Positions 22,867 to 50,097 of a stretch of 64,000 nucleotides of DNA are shown here, piece by piece. How positions within the stretch are numbered: the first letter of the stretch is position 1; every line of letters starts with the position of its first letter. Source of the DNA: an uncultured Candidatus Binatia bacterium (GTDB lineage: Bacteria; Desulfobacterota; Binatia; UBA9968; JAJDTQ01); contig CBDBFB010000003.1 of assembly GCA_965204505.1 (NCBI GenBank), positions 911,705-975,704 on the forward strand, given 5' to 3'. The notes under the pieces are model-generated. The model was not told the origin of the DNA. It did not search any database and saw only the letters and a program-made list of their open reading frames with translations. Position numbers and translations under genes: made by a program.

Positions 22867-22929
22867 CTAGTCCCTGCCAAGGTGGCGACACCCAAATCAT
22901 CACTACCATGAAAACAGGCGCGCTGCCCG

Positions 22930-23036
22930 CACCCGTCATTCCGGCGAAAGCCGGAATCCAGGGGCGGGGTCGTGGCGGCACTCCGGACCGTTGCCCCTCC
23001 CCTCCTGGATTCCGGCTTTCGCCGGAATGACGGGTG
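22930..23036. repeat. CGTC-tagged palindromic repeat dimer
   Basis: CACCCGTCATTCCGGCGAAAGCCGGAATCCAGG (22930-22962) and reverse complement (23004-23036). Confidence 0.92.
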
Positions 23037-23077
23037 TGGTGTCGAATGACGGGTGAGGGCATGGGTGTACGGGTGCA

Positions 23078-23423: not shown

Positions 23424-24113
23424 CTACGCCATCGCCAGAAGAATCCAGAAGATCGCGGTAAGGACCAGGCCGCTCCAGATCACGCCCGGAATGGACGTCA
23501 GGAGCTTCTTGGTGCCTCCCCCGGCATTGCCCACCAACGCGTTCAACTCGACGACCGCGATGATCACGAGAGTGACGATCCAGTAAACCGCCACGCCGCC
23601 GCCGTACTCGCCGTGCGGATAGTGGCTCGCCGCCCCCATGAGGAACAGCATGGGGATGGAGAACAGGGTGTTGGTACGGGAGGCGAAACCGGCCCACTGG
23701 CCCTTGCTCGCCGCGTCCGGAAGCGCCTCTCCCCCTTCCGCCACCTTGTTGGCGGAGGCGATGACCACCTGCTGATTGGGCCAGATGACCAGCCACACGT
23801 TGAGGAACATGATCGTGCCCATGGTGCCGCCGATGGTGATGGCCATGCCGTAGCCGATCACGAAGAAGTCGGCGCCGAACTGCCCCAGCTTGATGAGCCA
23901 CATGAGAATGCCCGCCAGGAAGGTGAACATGGCACCCCAACGGAACCACCAGAGGGCGCGCGGCACGAGCTTCTGGATCGCTCCGCTGCGGGTCGAGGCC
24001 TCGGTCTCGGCGAAGAAGGGCGTCTGCACGAAGTTGAAATAGTAGAGCAAGCCGATCCAGGTGACACCGGCCAACAAATGTACCCAACGCAGTAAAAATT
24101 CAACGAGCTCCAT
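23424..24113 (-). CDS. Urate hydroxylase PuuD-like membrane domain protein, no fused cytochrome c
   Basis: LLRWVHLLAGVTWIGLLYYFNFVQ, ALWWFRWGA, GTIMFLNVWLVIWPNQ, ASRTNTLFSIPMLFLM; AGGAGG RBS. Confidence 0.8.
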   Translation of the reverse strand: MELVEFLLRWVHLLAGVTWIGLLYYFNFVQTPFFAETEASTRSGAIQKLVPRALWWFRWGAMFTFLAGILMWLIKLGQFGADFFVIGYGMAITIGGTMGTIMFLNVWLVIWPNQQVVIASANKVAEGGEALPDAASKGQWAGFASRTNTLFSIPMLFLMGAASHYPHGEYGGGVAVYWIVTLVIIAVVELNALVGNAGGGTKKLLTSIPGVIWSGLVLTAIFWILLAMA

Positions 24114-24169
24114 CAAGCACCTCCTGTAAGCTGTTTCCCGTAGTGTTTCCCGCAGAGTGGAATTTTCGC

Positions 24170-24223: not shown

Positions 24224-26446
24224 TCACTCCTCCGCGATGCACACCTCCGCGATGAGCGCGCTGAACTTCTCGTACAGCTCCCGGAGCCTGGCCTTGTAGT
24301 AATCCGCGTTCTCGTCGGGGCGGGCCGGGTCCCATTCCGAGACGTGCCGGCAGTTCTCGTTCACCATCACGTTGGCTCCGTCGCCCCCGACGTAGTAGGA
24401 GATCTGGTCTCCGGACAGATGGCGCCGCTCCGACCGCAGGGCCACCTCGTAGGCGCCGCGGGGATGCTGCTTCCCGCCCTTCACCCGCATCTGGTAGTCC
24501 TCCAGCGACTCCCGCAGGGTCTCGGTCCGCTTCAGCCGGGACAGTTCCAGGCGATGGCCGGCGATGTCCTCGCGATAGCGCTCGTAGAGCGCCGGGATCT
24601 CGTCCTTGCGGCCGTCGAACAGGAGACCGAGCGCCTCCTGAAGCCACTCGCGCCGATAGCGCTCGAGTCCGCGCGAACTCAGGTCGGCGCCGGCCACGGT
24701 GATGTCGCCCTGCTCATCCAGCAGCGCGTAATCGTCGGGCCCGTGGCAATACACCGCCCGGTACCGCGCCAGCGGCAGCTCGACCTTCCAGGGCAGCGAC
24801 AACGACGCCTCGGCCAAAGCCTCCTCCGCGCCGGGCTGGGCGTCCCGGGGAACGAAGTAGACGCCGCCGGCATCCACCGCGACGACCCGATGGCCCAGCT
24901 CGTCGAGCCGCGCCGCCAGCCGGCGGACAAGCTCTCCGACGGCTTCCGTCACCTGGTCGGCTACACGGGCATCGTTGAAGTGGCCTCCGGCGAAGGCCAG
25001 GTAGTCCTGGAACCCCTCCAGCAGCACCTTGCAGCCCGACCGGACCGTGGCGACGAAACGTCCGTCGTCCCCCGCGGGAGCCGCGTCATGAGTCTGCCCG
25101 TCAGGGTCGCACAGGTTCCGGAACCCGCGCAGCAGTTCCGGGAAGAGTCCCAGCTCGTCGGCGCCCGGGCGGCCGGCACCCGTCAGCATGACGGCCGGGT
25201 AAAGCGCCGTGACATCGCAGCGCACCACCGGCCGCGACACGCCCCGGACCTTGACCTCCGCGTATTTCCGCGCCGCCGGCTCCGCCGGTGCGGGCTCGGG
25301 AATGGAATGGCCCCGCGCAAGGTACTCCCGGAGCATGAGGCCGTCGATCTTCGCCGGGTCGTCGACCAGGGCGGTGTCCTGGTAACGGCACGGAAAGATC
25401 CGTGCCTGGACGTAGTGGGCCGGCGAGAGCGCCTCGGATATGGCACGGGTCTCGCGCACGTCGTCGAGGGCGTAGCGGAAAAGGGTGTCCGGGTCGTTGT
25501 CGAAGTACCAGCTCGCCTCGGCGCCCGGGATGTAGGTCCTTTGCGGGGCGGCCACGCCGAAGTGGCGCGCCACGTCCTTGAGGCCGTTGCGCTTGAGCTC
25601 CGGGTTGGCGCGGCTATAGCGCTGCGCGAGGAACCACGTGTCGATGACGTGGCGCCCGTGGATCTCGTAGTTCCGATAGGGGATGACACGCTCTCCGATG
25701 TGAAACCGCGCCTGGCGGTGCCGGATCGCGCTGCCGTCCCTGCCCATGGCCAGCTCGACCCGATGCCGCCGGGCGCGCGCGTCAAGATACGGAAGATCGA
25801 AGCGAAAGATGTTGTGACCCTCGATCACGTCCGGATCGCGGGAACGGATCTCCCGAACCATCTCCGCCAGCATCTCCGCCTCTGAGTATTCCCTGCCGGA
25901 TATGAGCCGCTCCCAGCCGCTGCTGTCCGACATGGCGATGGCGGTGATGCGGTCGCCCTCGCGGAGCGGATTGGGAAACTCGAACCCGGACGTGCGGTAG
26001 ACCTCCAGGTCGATCTGCATGCGCAGAAGGCGCTGGAAGCCCATGCCGAGGAAATGCGTCGTCCCCGACCACAGGAAGTACTGCTGCACGACGTCGCGCA
26101 CGTACAGGTATGGAACACCCGGAGCGCCCAGGCTCCTGCCGCTCCGGCGCTGGAGCCAGGAGGCCGCCGACTCGAGGCTCCGAACGTCGGAGAAGCGGGC
26201 CAACCGGCGGAACCGACCGGTTCCGGAGAGCGGCTCCATCCGGCACTGGCCCCGCCATCCCGCGAGCCTGTCCTCGGAGGTCAGCCACAGAAACGGCTCG
26301 AACGGCACGGTCTTGGAGGTCAACGACGACGGCGTCCTGGAGAAGAGCCGGACATGGTGAGCCCCTTCCAGCTCCACGCCCACCACCTCCGCCGTCGTGT
26401 CGCGGCCGTACAGCACCGGTTCGTATTGGCGGGTGGAGTCGCCCAT
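24224..26446 (-). CDS. Family-B DNA polymerase homologue with intact 3'-5' exonuclease motifs and degenerate polymerase motifs
   Basis: ExoI IDLEVY, ExoII GHNIFRFDLPYL, ExoIII YALDDVRET; motif A CDVTALYPAV, motif B KVLLEGFQDY, motif C VDAGG; start ATG 26446 (the ORF-track extension is the antisense of the PAC2 gene). Confidence 0.85.
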   Translation of the reverse strand: MGDSTRQYEPVLYGRDTTAEVVGVELEGAHHVRLFSRTPSSLTSKTVPFEPFLWLTSEDRLAGWRGQCRMEPLSGTGRFRRLARFSDVRSLESAASWLQRRSGRSLGAPGVPYLYVRDVVQQYFLWSGTTHFLGMGFQRLLRMQIDLEVYRTSGFEFPNPLREGDRITAIAMSDSSGWERLISGREYSEAEMLAEMVREIRSRDPDVIEGHNIFRFDLPYLDARARRHRVELAMGRDGSAIRHRQARFHIGERVIPYRNYEIHGRHVIDTWFLAQRYSRANPELKRNGLKDVARHFGVAAPQRTYIPGAEASWYFDNDPDTLFRYALDDVRETRAISEALSPAHYVQARIFPCRYQDTALVDDPAKIDGLMLREYLARGHSIPEPAPAEPAARKYAEVKVRGVSRPVVRCDVTALYPAVMLTGAGRPGADELGLFPELLRGFRNLCDPDGQTHDAAPAGDDGRFVATVRSGCKVLLEGFQDYLAFAGGHFNDARVADQVTEAVGELVRRLAARLDELGHRVVAVDAGGVYFVPRDAQPGAEEALAEASLSLPWKVELPLARYRAVYCHGPDDYALLDEQGDITVAGADLSSRGLERYRREWLQEALGLLFDGRKDEIPALYERYREDIAGHRLELSRLKRTETLRESLEDYQMRVKGGKQHPRGAYEVALRSERRHLSGDQISYYVGGDGANVMVNENCRHVSEWDPARPDENADYYKARLRELYEKFSALIAEVCIAEE

Positions 26447-26617: not shown

Positions 26618-26653
26618 TGGTGCTGTCATCGACAGATGTGCTAGAGAAGAATC

Positions 26654-27439
26654 ATGGTCACTGACGCCGTCTCCCATATCCGCCGTCCCCGTCTGCGGCA
26701 ACCCTTCCTGATCCTGTCCTTCTCGGGTTGGAGCGACGCGGGGTCTTCGGCCACCTCGGCGGTCCGCTACCTGATCGAGCAGCTCCTGGCCTCGGAGCTG
26801 GCCAAGATCGACCCGGAAGAGTACTACGACTTCTCGGTACAGCGGCCTCACGTGCGGCTGGCGGACGGACGGCGGGAGATCGAGTGGCCCTCCTACGACT
26901 TCCATTACTACAAGACCGGAAGCGATCTGGAACAGGATTTCATTTTCGCCTCCGGGGCCGAGCCGCACCTCCACTGGAAATCTTTCGCCAGCACGGTTCT
27001 GGATCTGGCACGCCAGTGGAAGGTCGCCCGCATCATCACCCTGGGAGCCCTTCTCGACGAGGTGCTCTACACCAAGCCGGTGCCGTTGAACGGATTCTCG
27101 TCGGACCCGGAGTTGATGAAGCAGTTGGACTTCACCCCGTCGCGGTACCAGGGACCCACCGGCATCGTCGGGATCCTGAGCGATACCTTCCGCAAGGAGG
27201 GCGTGCCGCACGTGAGCCTGTGGGCGGCGCTGCCGCACTACCTGGCGCCTTCCCCGAACCCGCGCGGGACCCTGGCGCTGGTCTTGCGCCTGACCCAGTG
27301 GCTCGGGATCCGTATCGACACGAGCCCGCTGGAACGCGCCGCGGGCGAGTTCCAGAACAAGGTGAACGACGTCGTCAACAGCGACCCGAACCTGACGGCT
27401 CTTGTCCGGGAGCTGCAGAAGCACGAGTTCGAGCAATAG
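26654..27439 (+). CDS. PAC2 (proteasome assembly chaperone-like) family protein
   Basis: FSGWSDAGSSAT, IDPEEYYDFSVQRP, GAEPHLHW, YQGPTGIVG, LWAALPHY. Confidence 0.85.
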   Translation: MVTDAVSHIRRPRLRQPFLILSFSGWSDAGSSATSAVRYLIEQLLASELAKIDPEEYYDFSVQRPHVRLADGRREIEWPSYDFHYYKTGSDLEQDFIFASGAEPHLHWKSFASTVLDLARQWKVARIITLGALLDEVLYTKPVPLNGFSSDPELMKQLDFTPSRYQGPTGIVGILSDTFRKEGVPHVSLWAALPHYLAPSPNPRGTLALVLRLTQWLGIRIDTSPLERAAGEFQNKVNDVVNSDPNLTALVRELQKHEFEQ

Positions 27440-43730: not shown

Positions 43731-43982
43731 GAAGTCACCTCCTCTTGTGTCGCCGGGATTTTCGTTCGCGGGTTGCGGTCGCTGAACGGCCCCAAAGGGC
43801 CGCATAGCTGACGTGACTTGGTCAGGCGTCAGCATTGGGGTGGATTGTGGCGTGGCCCCGTTTGCGGACTTCACTCAAGACAGTCTGACACAAAGCCCTT
43901 GAGGTGGACAACAAGGGAACTCAAGGATCTGGAACTTTCGATCACATATGGATGAATCTTCCCTTCAGGAACCTCTTGCATA

Positions 43983-43998
43983 CCAGACTAAAGTCTGG
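43983..43998. promoter_or_regulatory. Candidate LexA operator CCAGACT-AA-AGTCTGG
   Basis: Perfect 7-bp arms, 12 nt upstream of lexA ATG 44011 and next to a -35-like TTGCAT (43976-43981). Confidence 0.65.
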
Positions 43999-44010
43999 CA
44001 TGACATCCTC

Positions 44011-44613
44011 ATGGTACCTTTCACTCCACCGGGAGAAACCCGGGAAAAGGTTTACCGGTTCGTGCGCAGGCGGATCCTGGAGGAGCTTCCTCCGACGGTG
44101 CGGGAGGTCCAGGAGGCGTTCCGGTTCAAGGCGGTGCAGACGGCCCGGGAGCATCTCGAACGCCTGGTAGCCGAGGGGCGGCTGGTCAAGACATCCGGGA
44201 AATCAAGGGGTTATCGCCTGCCCCGGGAACCCGGGACGCTGTTCGTCCCCCTTTTGGGGAGGGTGCAGGCGGGTGGGCTGCGGGCGGCCATCGAGGAATG
44301 CGAGGGTTATCTCCCGGTGCAGTCGCGGGGCTCGGAGGATCTGTTCGGGCTCCGGGTCCAAGGTGAAAGCATGTCCGGGGCGGGCATCCTTCCGGGCGAC
44401 ATCGTTGTCGTGCGGCAACAGGCGGAAGCCGCCTCGGGGGACATCGTCGTGGCCCTGGTGGGCGACGAGGCCACCATCAAGAGGCTCCGGCTGCGCCGGA
44501 ACGGAATCGAACTTCATCCGGAGAACCCGGCCTTCGCGCCGATCGTTCCGAGGGCCGATGAGTTCGCCATTCTCGGCAGAGTGGTGGAGGTGAGGCGTTA
44601 TCTGGAAGGGTGA
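44011..44613 (+). CDS. lexA: SOS repressor LexA
   Basis: PPTVREV...EHLERL winged HTH, LGRVQAG cleavage site, GESM catalytic Ser, ATIKR catalytic Lys. Confidence 0.93.
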   Translation: MVPFTPPGETREKVYRFVRRRILEELPPTVREVQEAFRFKAVQTAREHLERLVAEGRLVKTSGKSRGYRLPREPGTLFVPLLGRVQAGGLRAAIEECEGYLPVQSRGSEDLFGLRVQGESMSGAGILPGDIVVVRQQAEAASGDIVVALVGDEATIKRLRLRRNGIELHPENPAFAPIVPRADEFAILGRVVEVRRYLEG

Positions 44614-44700
44614 ATGCGCAGGACGGTTCGGGCACGGAATCCGGGACGACGCCTTTCCGGCGCCCGGGCCTTTGCCTTTTGCGGGACACGGAGAACTTTC

Positions 44701-45372
44701 ATGGACGTTTTCGCCGAAAAGAGCCACGAGCGGATGCCGGTTCCGGCCCACGCGTGGATGCCGGCTTCGAGTGCTGCCCCTGTCGCGCCGCGGCGCCGGC
44801 CTGTTCGCGAAGCCCCAAGGGCCTGGAACATGTCCCTGCTGGCGGGTCGTCTCACCGAGGTCTCGGACTCGGGCGCTACCCCTGCCCTCACGGCCGCCGC
44901 CGCCCTGATCCTCCAGGCCCAGCAACGCGGCGAGCCCGCGGCGTGGGTCGGCTTCGGCAACTCGATCTTCTTCCCGCCGGATCTGGTCGAGTGGGGCATC
45001 GATCTCGACGCCTTGCCGGTGGTCCGCGTCCCCGACGCCCTCGCCGCGTCGCGGGCCGCCGACCAACTGCTGCGCTCCGGCGCGTTCGGGCTGGTGGTGC
45101 TGGACCTGAAAGCGCAGACACAAATGCACGTGGCGGTCCAGAGCCGCCTCGCGGCGCTGGCCCGGAAGCACCATGCGGCGCTCATCTGCCTCACCCGCAA
45201 GAAACGGGGAGCGCCGTCGCTGGGGCCGCTGGTGTCGCTGCACGGCGAGGGCCGCATCACGAGGGCCGCTTTCAGCCGCTTCGACTGGGAGATCCGCGTC
45301 GTCAAGGACAAATGCGGCGCACCGGGATGGAGCCACACGGAGTCGTGCCGTGGAACGGATGGCCTGTGTTGA
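44701..45372 (+). CDS. imuA: ImuA / RecA-like mutagenesis accessory protein
   Basis: GRLTEVS, WGIDLDALPVVR, ADQLLRSGAFGLVVLDL; Walker A degenerate; located between lexA and imuB. Confidence 0.82.
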   Translation: MDVFAEKSHERMPVPAHAWMPASSAAPVAPRRRPVREAPRAWNMSLLAGRLTEVSDSGATPALTAAAALILQAQQRGEPAAWVGFGNSIFFPPDLVEWGIDLDALPVVRVPDALAASRAADQLLRSGAFGLVVLDLKAQTQMHVAVQSRLAALARKHHAALICLTRKKRGAPSLGPLVSLHGEGRITRAAFSRFDWEIRVVKDKCGAPGWSHTESCRGTDGLC

Positions 45373-46912
45373 CGTTGCGGCCTTTCCCCTGCAACTGCTG
45401 CTGCGGGACCATCCGGACTGGAAGGACCATCCCGCCGCGGTGGTGGACCGGGACAAGGCCCAAGGGGCCATTCTCTGGGTGAATTCCCCGGCGCATGCCA
45501 CGGGCATCCTTCCGGGCATGCGCTACGGCGCGGGGCTGGCGCTTTCGCGCCATCTCCGGGCGGACGTCATTTCCCGCTCGGCCATCGACAAGGCCGTGGC
45601 CGGCCTGGTGCCGCGGCTGCGGCGCTTTGCCGCCGAGGTGGAGCCCTCACGGGACGAGCCCGGAGTGTTCTGGCTCGGAGCCTCGGGCCTCTCCCTGCTC
45701 CATCCCCGCCTGGAGGAATGGGCCGGGCTCATCCACCGCGACCTCGCCGGCGCCGGCCTCCGCAACGCCGTGGCCGTGGGGTTCTCCCGTTTCGGCAGCT
45801 ATGCCGCGGCCAAGACCTGCGACCGGATCACGGTCTTCCGGACGCCTGAGGAAGAGCACCACCATGTCCGCGGCGTTCGCCTGGACCGGCTCGATTTCGC
45901 GCCCAAGGTCCGAGACCTGCTGGCCCGGCTCGGCATCCACACCCTGGGCGGCTTCCTGGACCTGCCGGCATCCCAGGTGCGCTCGCGTCTCGGACCGGAG
46001 GCCCACCGGCTTCACCGGCTGGCCGCGGGAGACCTGTGGAGCCCGCTCCATCCCGAGTTGACGGCCGAGCCCACCGCATCGAGGGTGTTCCTCGACTACC
46101 CGGAGAGCGACCACCGGCGGCTGACGGTCCTCATGGAGGACTTGCTGGAGCCGCTGCTCGCCGCGCTGGAGCAGCGCCACGAGGTGATGACCATTCTCCT
46201 CCTCCACCTCCGCCTGGACGACAGGTCGGAGAGGGCCGAGACCCTGCGGCCGGCCCGGCCCACCCTGGACCGGACGCAGATCCTGGATCTGCTGCGGCTT
46301 CGCCTGGAGGCCACGGCGCTGACGGCCGGGGTGACGGGAATCGTCATGGAGGTCCGAGGAACCTCGCCCGACGCCCGGCAGGGAGAACTTTTCCACAACG
46401 CCTCCGCCCGCGACCGCGACGCGGCCAACCGCGCCCTGGCGCGGCTGCGGGCCCGGTTCGGCGACGGCGCGGTCCTGCGGGCGCGACCGCGGTCCGGGCA
46501 CCTTCCGGAAGCGCGCTTTGCCTGGGAGCCCATGGAAACCGTGCCGCCGCCGAGGCCGCGCCGGGTCCGGCTGCGCCCGCTGGTACGGCGTTTCTTCCCG
46601 AAGCCCGTACCGCTCAGGGACCCTGCACCGCCTGCGGCCGACGCCGAGCCTGTGGTTGCCGAGGCCCGAGCCGGCGATGATCGAACCGCGAACGTCCGCG
46701 CTCGCAACGATCGAATGGAACACGCCCGAACCGGCGACGGCTTCCTCTCCCGGGAGAGCGCCGGCCCCTACATCATCTCCGGGGGATGGTGGGGCTGCGG
46801 TGCCGGGGTGCACCGCGAGTACCACTTCGTCCGCGCCGGCGAGGGCCCCTGGCTGTGGGTCTACTACGATTCCAGGCGGCACGGCTGGTTCCTGCACGGG
46901 AAGGTGGAGTAA
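45359..46912 (+). CDS. imuB: ImuB, inactive Y-family polymerase homologue
   Basis: [32 protein letters not shown]-terminal [10 protein letters not shown]...REYH...WFLHG. Confidence 0.88.
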
Positions 46913-46917
46913 GGACC

Positions 46918-50097
<3,180 letters not shown>

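What the first reader, a model, noticed from the sequence alone, without database searches (positions are those of the whole stretch)
24224..26446. Family-B polymerase with dead polymerase site but intact proofreading exonuclease
Seen: an uninterrupted 740-codon ORF keeps ExoI DLE (about 26003-26011), ExoII HNIFRFD and ExoIII YALDD, while the polymerase signatures are eroded. The (Y/F)xGG linker reads AARKY; motif A SLYPS reads ALYPA (first Asp kept); motif B KxxxNSxYG reads KVLLEGFQD (25001-25030); motif C DTD reads DAG (24863-24874, catalytic Asp replaced by Gly); KKxY reads PDDY; the thumb KG reads AG. Established: these residues are needed for dNTP and primer binding in PolB, and inactivated PolB paralogues are known mainly from archaea. 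Inference: a bacterial PolII-like protein repurposed as a stand-alone 3'-5' exonuclease or scaffold, conceivably supplying editing for other polymerases. Targeted motif loss without stops argues against simple decay.
Basis: partly seen in the sequence, partly recalled or inferred. Interest (0 to 1): 0.85.

Follow-up and report, generated by a model that had tools for sequence, protein, structure and literature searches.

The report
Polymerase-dead, exonuclease-intact bacterial PolB orthologue
In one genus of uncultured Binatia bacteria, the cell's only family-B DNA polymerase gene has lost every polymerase signature but kept a perfectly conserved proofreading nuclease and stayed intact in every genome searched, so it most likely now works as a DNA-trimming enzyme.

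Summary
Window 24224-26446 (-) encodes a 740-aa PolB homologue. ExoI/II/III are intact. Motifs A, B, C, KKxY, YxGG and the thumb KxG are degenerate.

It is not a paralogue and not Pol II-like. It is the positional orthologue, beside the same PAC2 gene, of an active G3 (PolEpsilonN-like) bacterial PolB found in sister families.

All 28 genomes of the window's genus carry the dead form and none matches PF00136. Sister families carry the active form or have lost it, and some copies there carry stops.

NG86 dN/dS is 0.16 in the exonuclease domain, like neighbouring housekeeping genes. It is 0.40 in palm and fingers, against about 0.10 in active relatives. This shows selective retention, not decay.

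The most likely function is a stand-alone DEDDy 3'-5' DNA exonuclease on a PolB scaffold.

Three tests of "editing for other polymerases" gave no specific support. DnaQ is missing order-wide regardless of PolB state. The DnaE1 PHP proofreader looks intact. No LexA operator lies nearby.

Pol-dead, exo-intact forms recur in other branches of this family. I rate it a new variant of a known kind.

The parts
24224..26446 (-). Whole CDS of the polymerase-dead PolB homologue (740 aa plus stop), here called PolBx.
   Evidence: Translation. Conserved start. Full-length similarity to solved PolBs. AF2 model with pLDDT 94.7 and pTM 0.92.
26048..26446 (-). N-terminal domain, residues 1-133.
   Evidence: Domain limits were transferred from the alignment to Thermococcus PolB. 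dN/dS is 0.29. 28% of sites are invariant in the dead clade, against 17% in active relatives.
25442..26047 (-). DEDDy 3'-5' exonuclease domain, residues 134-335.
   Evidence: PF03104 E 1.1e-11. dN/dS is 0.16. 52% of sites are invariant, against 51% in active relatives.
26003..26011 (-). ExoI, D146-L-E148.
   Evidence: Invariant in 27 of 27 dead-clade loci and in 30 of 30 dead-clade proteins.
25796..25813 (-). ExoII, N212-IFRF-D217.
   Evidence: N212, F216 and D217 are invariant in 27 of 27 loci.
25460..25474 (-). ExoIII, Y325-ALD-D329.
   Evidence: Y325 and D329 are invariant in 27 of 27 loci.
24749..25312 (-). Degenerate palm and fingers, residues 379-566.
   Evidence: dN/dS is 0.40, against 0.10-0.11 in active relatives. 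Invariant sites are 7%, 12% and 11% in palm1, fingers and palm2, against 43%, 50% and 51%. The fold is still predicted.
25190..25222 (-). Former motif A, RCDVTALYPAV. D411 is kept here and is Glu in 6 of 27 orthologues.
25004..25030 (-). Former motif B, KVLLEGFQD. The Asn and the Tyr-Gly of K-x3-NS-x-YG are lost, and the Lys is lost in some orthologues.
24866..24874 (-). Former motif C, D525-A-G527. The second, metal-binding Asp of DTD is replaced.
   Evidence: 26 of 27 dead-clade loci lack the second Asp. L037 reads DSD but has lost motifs A and B.
24728..24742 (-). Former KKxY motif, GPDDY.
24227..24748 (-). Thumb domain, residues 567-740. Its C-terminal half is strongly conserved.
   Evidence: dN/dS is 0.24. 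Mean column conservation is 0.91-0.93 for residues 631-720.
26654..27439 (+). Divergently transcribed PAC2-family gene. It is context only, the marker of positional orthology.
   Evidence: PF09754 E 2.9e-53. It lies next to the PolB gene in the window, in 25 of 26 other dead-clade loci, and in 11 of 14 active-form loci.

Best explanation
PolBx is a family-B polymerase of the bacterial G3 (PolEpsilonN-like) group. It was converted in place, in an ancestor of this Binatia genus, into an enzyme that can no longer polymerise but still binds DNA and still cuts it.

Proposed mechanism:
- The N-terminal domain, the conserved thumb and the surviving palm scaffold hold a primer-template or a 3' end.
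- The residues that seat the primer end and the dNTP in the polymerase site are lost or turned acidic. These are KKxY, KxG, YxGG, the Lys/Asn/Tyr of motif B, and the second Asp of motif C.
- The 3' end therefore partitions by default into the intact DEDDy site (D146, E148, D217, Y325, D329) and is removed 3' to 5'.

The cell would use it as a stand-alone 3'-end editing or clean-up exonuclease, removing mismatched or damaged 3' termini left by other polymerases or by repair.

What is shown: motif loss, motif retention, positional orthology, domain-specific purifying selection, and genus-wide retention. What is inferred: exonuclease activity, the DNA substrate, and the cellular role.
For: (1) Motifs. 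ExoI/II/III are invariant in 27 of 27 orthologous loci. Motifs A, B, C, KKxY, YxGG and KxG are all altered in 27 of 27 and vary among them. In 14 of 14 active relatives the polymerase motifs are invariant.

(2) HMM test. PF00136 is matched in 0 of 28 genomes of the genus, and in 15 of 15 sister-family genomes that have a homologue.

(3) Locus and copy number. It sits at the same locus beside PAC2 as the active form. It is the only PolB-like gene in the genome.

(4) Selection (NG86 dN/dS).
- Exonuclease domain 0.16, thumb 0.24, N-terminal domain 0.29, palm and fingers 0.40, over 325 of 351 pairs with dS 0.03-1.0.
- Active relatives are about 0.10 in every domain (4 of 91 pairs at dS below 1; 35 of 91 at dS below 2.5).
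- Neighbouring genes in the same genomes are 0.09-0.18, and HemD is 0.33.

(5) Intact frames. 27 of 27 whole genes are uninterrupted. The 28th genome's copy is cut only by two contig ends. 3.3% of single-base changes would create a stop, so a neutral divergence of 0.1 per site predicts 7.4 stops per lineage.

(6) Contrast with the sister family. The active gene was found in only 46 of 90 genomes there, and some copies are broken. G097 has several in-frame stops and G098 holds only a 70-aa remnant.

(7) Structure. AF2 predicts a full PolB fold (pLDDT 94.7, pTM 0.92). Among Foldseek hits the highest TM-scores (0.77-0.78) are to Pyrococcus abyssi PolB bound to DNA in editing mode. This is a weak hint only.

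(8) Recurrence. Of 236 family members, 38 are exo-intact and pol-dead. Eight of these lie outside this clade, and all 8 fall below the PF00136 cut-off while keeping PF03104. P0142 and P0149 form a separate dead clade.

(9) Precedent. In E. coli the exonuclease of Pol II corrects replicase errors (review PMC11253446, passages read). A subset of PolX keeps its PHP exonuclease but not its polymerase site (PMC12926913, passages read).
Against: - No activity has been measured.
- All domains, the exonuclease included, evolve faster than in active relatives (0.16 against 0.08). The clade's stem branch is long, at 0.37.
- Acidic residues persist at two former polymerase-site positions: D or E at 411 in 27 of 27, and D or E at 525 in 27 of 27. 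Some metal binding in the palm is therefore not excluded.
- No beta-clamp-binding QxxLF-type tail was found. Such tails are seen in 22 of 236 more distant relatives.
- Nothing links it specifically to another polymerase. DnaQ-like genes were not found in 51 of 61 related genomes whatever their PolB state. The genome's DnaE1 keeps all nine PHP metal ligands. The LexA operator found at lexA is absent near this gene.
- dS is low and probably compressed by the GC3 of about 80-94%, so absolute dN/dS values are rough. Pairs are also not independent.
- With the dead clade alone as alignment, the AF2 model is poor (pLDDT 57.2).
Confidence: 0.6

Rival explanations
1. Non-catalytic scaffold. The protein is kept only as a DNA-binding or protein-binding module. 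This would resemble the inactivated C-terminal half of Pol epsilon. The exonuclease residues would be conserved for structure or binding, not for cutting.
For: The thumb C-terminal half and the N-terminal domain are as conserved as the exonuclease domain. Inactivated PolB modules with structural roles are established (PMC7544198 introduction, passages read). The whole fold is predicted to persist.
Against: All five DEDDy catalytic residues are invariant in 27 of 27 loci, in 30 of 30 clade proteins, and also in the sister dead clade P0086/P0123. In known scaffold derivatives, such as the Pol epsilon C-terminal half and PolB2/G2, the exonuclease motifs are degraded too. The exonuclease domain has the lowest dN/dS of the protein.
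Confidence: 0.15
2. Slow decay. The gene lost its function and is on its way to loss, but has not yet acquired stops.
For: dN/dS is raised two- to four-fold in every domain relative to active relatives, and the stem branch is long. The active form is clearly dispensable in the sister family.
Against: The gene is present in 28 of 28 genomes and intact in 27 of 27 whole copies, across lineages with housekeeping proteins 80-98% identical and dS up to about 0.65-1. Several stops per lineage would be expected under neutrality. Exonuclease-domain dN/dS equals that of neighbouring housekeeping genes. Real decay in family f3 looks different, with stops, remnants and absence.
Confidence: 0.07
3. Cryptic catalysis in the palm. 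The protein still performs a nucleotidyl-transfer reaction with a non-canonical site. This could be an unusual polymerase, a terminal transferase or a primase-like activity.
For: An acidic residue is kept at motif A position 411 and at the first position of motif C in 27 of 27 loci, and the steric-gate Tyr416 is mostly kept. PolB groups with only one motif-C Asp can be active: piPolB lacks the first Asp (PMC7544198 section 15, passage read). Palm dN/dS of 0.40 is still below 1.
Against: Here it is the second, metal-binding Asp that is lost; that this residue is the metal ligand is recalled knowledge of RB69 and KOD PolB. Six separate motifs are degraded at once and differ between orthologues. 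This is not expected for a site under catalytic constraint. Only 7-12% of palm and finger sites are invariant.
Confidence: 0.05

Closest known systems
Active G3 (PolEpsilonN-like) bacterial PolB of sister Binatia families (group defined in Kazlauskas et al. 2020, PMC7544198; called experimentally uncharacterised in PMC12926913)
   Same: About 50% identical over the full length. Same length. Same locus beside PAC2. Identical ExoI/II/III. Same predicted fold.
   Different: The active forms have invariant motifs A, B, C (with the G3-type E-x-DTD), KxKNY, GG(Y/F)T and IKGSG, and they match PF00136. PolBx has none of these. The 2026 survey states that G3 has both active sites conserved and a clamp-binding motif. 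PolBx contradicts the first statement. I could not find the second.
E. coli DNA polymerase II (PolB group G1)
   Same: A bacterial accessory PolB with a DEDDy proofreader. Its exonuclease corrects errors of the replicase. This is the functional model for an editing role.
   Different: A different PolB clade. ExoII is GHN, not GWN. NCBIfam Pol II equivalog models score 29-50 bits against cut-offs of 570-1435. Pol II polymerises, is SOS-regulated and binds the clamp. No LexA operator was found near PolBx.
Archaeal PolB2 and its bacterial offshoot G2 (the 'inactivated' PolB of Rogozin et al. 2008, PMC2527604, search listing only; PMC7544198 section 15)
   Same: A PolB derivative with substituted active-site motifs that is conserved as a family.
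   Different: The polarity is opposite. In B2/G2, ExoI is not conserved, ExoIII is missing, and the polymerase probably works in translesion synthesis. In PolBx the exonuclease is intact and the polymerase is dead. No RadA-like partner genes appear among the 10 neighbours scanned.
C-terminal inactivated PolB module of eukaryotic Pol epsilon
   Same: A PolB fold kept after loss of polymerase catalysis.
   Different: There the module as a whole is described as inactivated and serves as a scaffold for the CMG helicase. Here the exonuclease site is fully conserved.
PolX1 with a dead polymerase site but conserved PHP exonuclease, and 'PolX-like' proteins (PMC12926913 section 17, passages read)
   Same: The same evolutionary logic: selection keeps the 3'-5' exonuclease of a repair polymerase after the polymerase site is given up.
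   Different: An unrelated polymerase family (X) and an unrelated nuclease fold (PHP rather than DEDDy).
Exonuclease-only PolB relics of DPANN archaea noted earlier in this scan (e1-2777478, e1-3084650; AI notes, unchecked by me)
   Same: Pol-dead, exo-intact PolB conserved as a family.
   Different: Archaeal, derived from a PolB3-like ancestor, and reported to be paired with a Cas4-like nuclease. No such neighbour is present here.

Membership tests
Family B DNA polymerase superfamily (homology and fold) | Significant full-length sequence similarity to solved PolBs, covering the N-terminal, exonuclease, palm and thumb regions. | tested here: met
   phmmer against the PDB: 7rsu_A E 7e-19, with stretches 188-426 and 472-718; 5h12_A aligns 188-672 in one stretch.
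Family B DNA polymerase superfamily (homology and fold) | PolB three-dimensional architecture. | tested here: met
   AF2 pLDDT 94.7 and pTM 0.92. Foldseek E 1e-34 and TM up to 0.78 to archaeal PolBs. Caveat: the alignment used for the model contained active relatives. The dead-clade-only control was poor overall (pLDDT 57.2), although residues 370-630 still scored 61-91 except for the 45-54 in blocks 451-470.
Catalytically competent PolB polymerase | Motif A (DxxSLYPS), motif B (Kx3NSxYG), motif C (DTD) and KKxY. | tested here: not met
   All are degenerate. PF00136 is not matched in the protein or anywhere in the genome.
DEDDy 3'-5' exonuclease (PolB proofreading domain, PF03104) | ExoI D-x-E, ExoII N-x3-F-D and ExoIII Y-x3-D. 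| tested here: met
   D146, E148, N212, F216, D217, Y325 and D329 are present and invariant in 27 of 27 loci. PF03104 scores 45.1 bits against a cut-off of 23.
Bacterial PolB group G3 / EpsilonN-like (Kazlauskas 2020) | A conserved Glu in motif C (E-x-DTD). | tested here: inconclusive
   The nearest active relatives have E(I/V)DTD in 14 of 14. PolBx itself reads A-V-D-A-G, and its orthologues have T or A at the Glu position. The feature is described in PMC7544198 section 17.
Bacterial PolB group G3 / EpsilonN-like (Kazlauskas 2020) | Phylogenetic placement with reference G3 sequences. | not tested
   No named G3 reference sequence was at hand, and supplements are closed. Assignment rests on the motif-C Glu of relatives and on the absence of the PolII-like GWN.
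Bacterial PolB group G3 (as characterised in PMC12926913) | Conserved polymerase and exonuclease active sites plus a beta-clamp-binding motif. | tested here: not met
   The polymerase site is lost. No Q-x-x-[LIVM]-F tail is present. The only hit is the internal Q347-ARIF, shared as a structural element by 50 of 236 sequences. Where the authors place the motif is in supplements I could not see.
E. coli-type Pol II (group G1; NCBIfam NF004420/21/22) | Score above the equivalog cut-off, and the ExoII 'GWN' signature. | tested here: not met
   Scores are 49.9, 41.2 and 29.2 bits against cut-offs of 570, 1103 and 1435. ExoII reads GHN. GWN is given as the clade signature in PMC7544198 section 16.
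PolB2 / G2 'inactivated' PolB | ExoI not conserved and ExoIII missing. | tested here: not met
   ExoI and ExoIII are intact. The feature comes from PMC7544198 section 15.

The most novel reading that the evidence does not exclude
G3 PolBs have repeatedly given up polymerisation to become dedicated stand-alone 3'-5' exonucleases. These would be a distinct, undescribed class of bacterial DNA-end editing enzyme that proofreads or cleans 3' termini for polymerases lacking their own editor. In this sponge-associated Binatia genus the exonuclease-only form has become more indispensable than the ancestral polymerase: it is kept in 28 of 28 genomes, whereas the active form is kept in about half of the sister-family genomes.
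Probability: 0.3. Interest if true: 0.75.

Novelty: new variant of a known kind. Interest (0 to 1): 0.6.

Why it matters
Bacterial G3 PolBs are the second largest bacterial PolB group, and the 2026 survey says they have not been studied experimentally. That survey describes both of their active sites as conserved.

This report finds a natural, genus-wide separation-of-function allele: polymerase off, exonuclease on. It is held by selection for a long time, and there are independent parallels elsewhere in the family.

Three consequences follow:
- It suggests that the exonuclease, not the polymerase, may be the selectively important activity of at least some G3 PolBs.
- It offers a ready-made protein for testing extrinsic proofreading or 3'-end processing.
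- It warns that automatic annotation of these genes as "DNA polymerase II" (names) overstates what they can do.

Tried and rejected
- **Longer frame to 27496.** Rejected. The upstream 350 codons are antisense to the PAC2 gene, and the Met at 26446 is the conserved start.
- **Replacement for a missing DnaQ.** PF00929 is not found in the own genome. It is also not found in 51 of 61 relatives, including genomes with no PolB at all, such as genus g6 with 0 of 8 for both. There is no specific link.
- **Replacement for a dead PHP proofreader.** The own DnaE1 aligns to the M. tuberculosis and T. aquaticus alpha subunits with all nine PHP ligands present. The residue list H14, H16, D23, H48, E73, H107, C158, D226, H228 is recalled, not taken from a call.
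- **SOS control.** A palindrome, ACCAGAC-N4-GTCTGGT, is conserved upstream of lexA in 15 of 15 loci. Its only perfect copy in the genome is at lexA itself (36 sites at one mismatch or fewer, none near PolBx). No convincing copy lies in the PolB loci.
- **Pol I lacking a 3'-5' exonuclease only in this genus.** PF01612 hits are mostly to ORFs of about 400 aa, not to Pol I-sized frames. They show no pattern separating the genus from its sisters.
- **Clamp-binding tail.** Not found. I did not run a complex prediction because I do not claim binding.
- **Expression.** A sponge metatranscriptome run (X22) has contigs 90-96% identical lying on parts of the gene and on the downstream gene. These are contigs only, from a relative, and DNA carry-over is not excluded. 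This is not evidence of transcription.
- **AF2 with the dead clade alone.** Mean pLDDT was 57.2, and the invariant exonuclease domain scored below 50. It cannot be used as an independent structural test.
- **PADLOC hit 'HEase'.** This model matches the PolB exonuclease region (residues 188-384) only. It is not evidence of a defence role.
- **Technical failures.** Biopython cal_dn_ds timed out and was replaced by my own NG86 code. The careful tree search did not finish, so the quick IQ-TREE tree with SH-aLRT support was used. One search failed because a search term was too short.
- **Host of the sister dead clade (P0086/P0123).** Not found among the 123 genomes of the order; the best identity was 55%.
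Full report
**What is there.**
The minus strand of window 24224-26446 encodes a 740-residue protein without a stop. The open frame continues upstream to 27496. That part is the antisense of a PAC2-family gene at 26654-27439 (+). The Met at 26446 aligns with the start of all orthologues examined.

The window has 66% G+C. Record titles of near-identical loci name MAGs of Candidatus Binatia, also filed as Deltaproteobacteria, Thermodesulfobacteriota or Syntrophobacterales. The surroundings are ordinary chromosomal genes: hemA, hemD and hemB-type genes, PAC2, a disulfide oxidoreductase, and a Urate_ox_N-like membrane protein.

- Pfam sees only the PolB exonuclease domain (PF03104, E 1.1e-11) and no polymerase domain.
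- NCBIfam Pol II models score far below their cut-offs.
- phmmer against solved structures aligns the protein over nearly its full length with Thermococcus and Pyrococcus PolBs (best E 7e-19). It places AVDAGG on YSDTDG, KVLLEGFQDY on KILASSYYGY, DVTALYPA on DFRSLYPS, and PDDY on KKKY.
- Alignment with relatives about 50% identical that carry canonical motifs gives the same columns.
- ExoI (D146, E148), ExoII (N212, F216, D217) and ExoIII (Y325, D329) are intact.

**Which family.**
The nearest active relatives read GHN in ExoII and E-(I/V)-DTD in motif C. Kazlauskas et al. 2020 give GWN in ExoII as the signature of the PolII-like clade. They give a conserved Glu in motif C as the synapomorphy of PolEpsilonN, B10 and the bacterial group G3 (PMC7544198, sections 16 and 17 read).

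I therefore place the lineage in G3, not with E. coli Pol II. This rests on motifs only. I had no named G3 reference sequence, and the supplements are closed.

A 2026 survey calls G3 experimentally uncharacterised. It states that G3 has both active sites conserved and has a clamp-binding motif (PMC12926913, passages read).

**It is the orthologue, not a paralogue.**
- The window's genome is 5.9 Mb in 4 contigs, 97.9% complete and 3.6% contaminated. It has no PF00136 match at all.
- It has one single place similar to an active relative, which is this gene.
- I searched the own genome plus 60 related genomes. All 27 other genomes of the same genus have a homologue 66-95% identical, and none matches PF00136.
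- In two sister families, 5 of 5 and 10 of 28 genomes have a homologue about 50% identical. Every one of those 15 matches PF00136.
- The gene lies divergently next to PAC2 in the window. The same holds in 25 of 26 other dead-form loci; in L015, PAC2 is 3.9 kb away. It also holds in 11 of 14 active-form loci; of the other 3, L053 ends at a contig end.
- In a quick IQ-TREE tree of 42 rows, the dead clade is monophyletic (SH-aLRT 100, stem length 0.37). Its sister is a second pol-dead pair from metagenomes (P0086, P0123; support 99). Both are nested among active Binatia-type PolBs. The careful search did not finish.
- The hosts of P0086 and P0123 are not among the 123 genomes of the order.

**Selection.**
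I extracted the gene from the window and from 26 other genomes of the genus. All 27 are single uninterrupted frames. The 28th genome has the gene in two pieces that end 60 and 122 bases from two contig ends, which is an assembly break.

Exonuclease motifs are invariant in 27 of 27. All six polymerase-related motifs are altered in 27 of 27 and differ among orthologues. One locus, L037, reads DSD in motif C but has lost motifs A and B. The 14 active loci have invariant polymerase motifs, and one of them (L052) has His for the ExoI Asp.

NG86 dN/dS by domain:

| Domain | Dead clade | Active relatives |
|---|---|---|
| Whole gene | 0.26 | 0.10 |
| Exonuclease | 0.16 | 0.08-0.09 |
| Thumb | 0.24 | about 0.10 |
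| N-terminal | 0.29 | 0.12-0.15 |
| Palm and fingers | 0.40 | 0.10-0.11 |

The dead-clade values use 325 of 351 pairs with dS between 0.03 and 1. The active values use 4 of 91 pairs with dS below 1, and 35 of 91 with dS below 2.5.

Neighbouring genes in the same genomes give 0.09-0.18, and HemD gives 0.33.

Fraction of invariant sites, dead clade against active clade:

| Region | Dead | Active |
|---|---|---|
| Exonuclease | 0.52 | 0.51 |
| Thumb | 0.36 | 0.41 |
| Palm 1 | 0.07 | 0.43 |
| Fingers | 0.12 | 0.50 |
| Palm 2 | 0.11 | 0.51 |

In this CDS, 3.3% of single-base changes create a stop. Neutral divergence of 0.1 per site would therefore give about 7 stops per lineage.

Caveats: pairs are not independent, and dS is probably compressed by strong GC3 bias. 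I trust the contrasts more than the absolute values.

**What real decay looks like nearby.**
Across the 123 genomes of the order, the sister family f3 has a homologue in only 46 of 90 genomes. Some copies there are broken. G097 has pieces with one to five in-frame stops. G098 holds a 70-residue remnant. Several others are split. One genome in these tallies (G106) is marked unpublished. It contributes one match to the counts 46 of 90 and 79 of 123, and nothing else in this report rests on it.

The dead form is thus kept more faithfully than the active form.

**Structure.**
With a 100-sequence alignment, AF2 gives a complete PolB fold (pLDDT 94.7, pTM 0.92). Foldseek finds archaeal PolBs (E about 1e-34). 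The highest TM-scores, 0.77-0.78, go to P. abyssi PolB bound to DNA in editing mode. Replicative or apo states score 0.60-0.74. I treat this as a hint only.

A control with the 28 dead-clade sequences alone gave a poor model (pLDDT 57.2). The variable palm and fingers region still scored 61-91 apart from blocks 451-470, with the same secondary-structure elements. The nearly invariant exonuclease domain fell below 50.

**Tests of the 'editor for other polymerases' idea.**
- No DnaQ-like gene (PF00929) is found in the genome. The same is true of 51 of 61 relatives, including genomes without any PolB.
- The replicative DnaE1 keeps all nine PHP metal ligands when aligned to the M. tuberculosis and T. 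aquaticus enzymes (the residue list is recalled). The replicase probably proofreads for itself.
- A lexA gene with a DnaE2-type polymerase downstream lies 17 kb away in the window. Its upstream palindrome, ACCAGAC-N4-GTCTGGT, is conserved in 15 of 15 loci. It has no counterpart near PolBx or near the active PolBs.
- PF01612 gave no distinguishing pattern.
- No clamp-binding tail was found.

The role as editor stays an inference. It leans on two precedents. One is E. coli Pol II, whose exonuclease corrects replicase errors (PMC11253446, passages read). The other is PolX proteins that keep a PHP exonuclease after losing the polymerase site (PMC12926913).

**Recurrence.**
I classified 236 family members of 600-900 residues by key residues. 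These were the 120 listed and the 150 representatives, minus those outside the length range.

| Class | Count |
|---|---|
| Both sites intact | 150 |
| Exo intact, pol dead | 38 |
| Exo dead, pol intact | 33 |
| Both dead | 15 |

Of the 38, 30 belong to this clade. The remaining 8 all score below the PF00136 cut-off while keeping PF03104; P0238 is borderline at 22.9 bits. Two active controls score 88 and 109 bits. P0142 and P0149 form a separate dead pair inside a distant active clade. Alignment error may inflate the 'dead' calls for distant sequences.

**Literature.**
I ran four full-text searches: family B polymerase, bacterial, inactivated, exonuclease; Binatia with DNA polymerase; PolB, bacteria, inactivated polymerase, exonuclease domain; and Pol II extrinsic proofreading. 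In the listings and passages I read, I found no description of a pol-dead, exo-intact bacterial PolB. The two surveys I read in part do not mention one. Their supplementary tables, which I could not open, might list such sequences.

Earlier notes of this scan report analogous exonuclease-only PolBs in DPANN archaea. I did not check those notes.

**Verdict.**
The finding is real. The gene is a selectively retained, polymerase-dead and exonuclease-intact orthologue of a G3 PolB. It most likely acts as a stand-alone 3'-5' DNA exonuclease. Its cellular client is unknown.

Noticed in passing
window 43948-50097 (+); operator at 43983-43998: A lexA gene (PF01726 hit) is followed by two ORFs I did not examine (44614-45372 and 45173-46912) and a second DnaE-type polymerase (PF07733 hit, ORF 46786-50097). 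By recalled gene order this may be a lexA-imuA-imuB-dnaE2 cassette. A palindrome, ACCAGAC-N4-GTCTGGT, just upstream of the conserved lexA start is kept in 15 of 15 loci. Its only perfect copy in the 5.9-Mb genome is this one.
   Followed up: partly
window about 22925-23038: An intergenic element of about 110 bp gives 229 blastn matches across the genome, in both orientations. It shows depth in the thousands in metagenome contig runs. It looks like a REP- or MITE-like palindromic repeat family.
   Followed up: partly
whole genome G000 and 60 relatives: No DnaQ-like exonuclease (PF00929) was found in the own genome or in 51 of 61 genomes of the order. The own DnaE1 keeps all nine PHP ligands. 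The order probably relies on PHP proofreading.
   Followed up: partly
window 26623-26635, just upstream of the PAC2 start at 26654: An inverted repeat, CTGTC-ATC-GACAG, sits in a conserved block. In orthologues both arms change together, for example CTGCCG-A-CGGCAG in L029. This may be a hairpin or an operator of the PAC2 gene.
   Followed up: no
G097:C43:186854-189066; G098:C11:436953-437162: In the sister family the active-type PolB is decaying in some genomes. There are pieces with one to five in-frame stops, and a 70-residue remnant.
   Followed up: no
L052 (G045:C227): One otherwise canonical active-type PolB has His in place of the ExoI Asp (MQLHIETY). This may be an exonuclease-defective polymerase or a sequencing error.
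   Followed up: no
proteins P0142, P0149, P0150, P0173, P0264 (metagenomic representatives): These are further pol-dead, exo-intact members in distant branches of the same PolB family. There are also 33 exo-dead, pol-intact members and 15 doubly dead members among the 236 examined.
   Followed up: partly
window 23424-24116 (-): A Urate_ox_N-like membrane protein gene lies about 100 bases downstream of PolBx on the same strand. It is there in the window and in all 26 other dead-form loci, and in none of the 14 active-form loci. A metatranscriptome contig of a relative spans it and the 3' end of PolBx.
   Followed up: no
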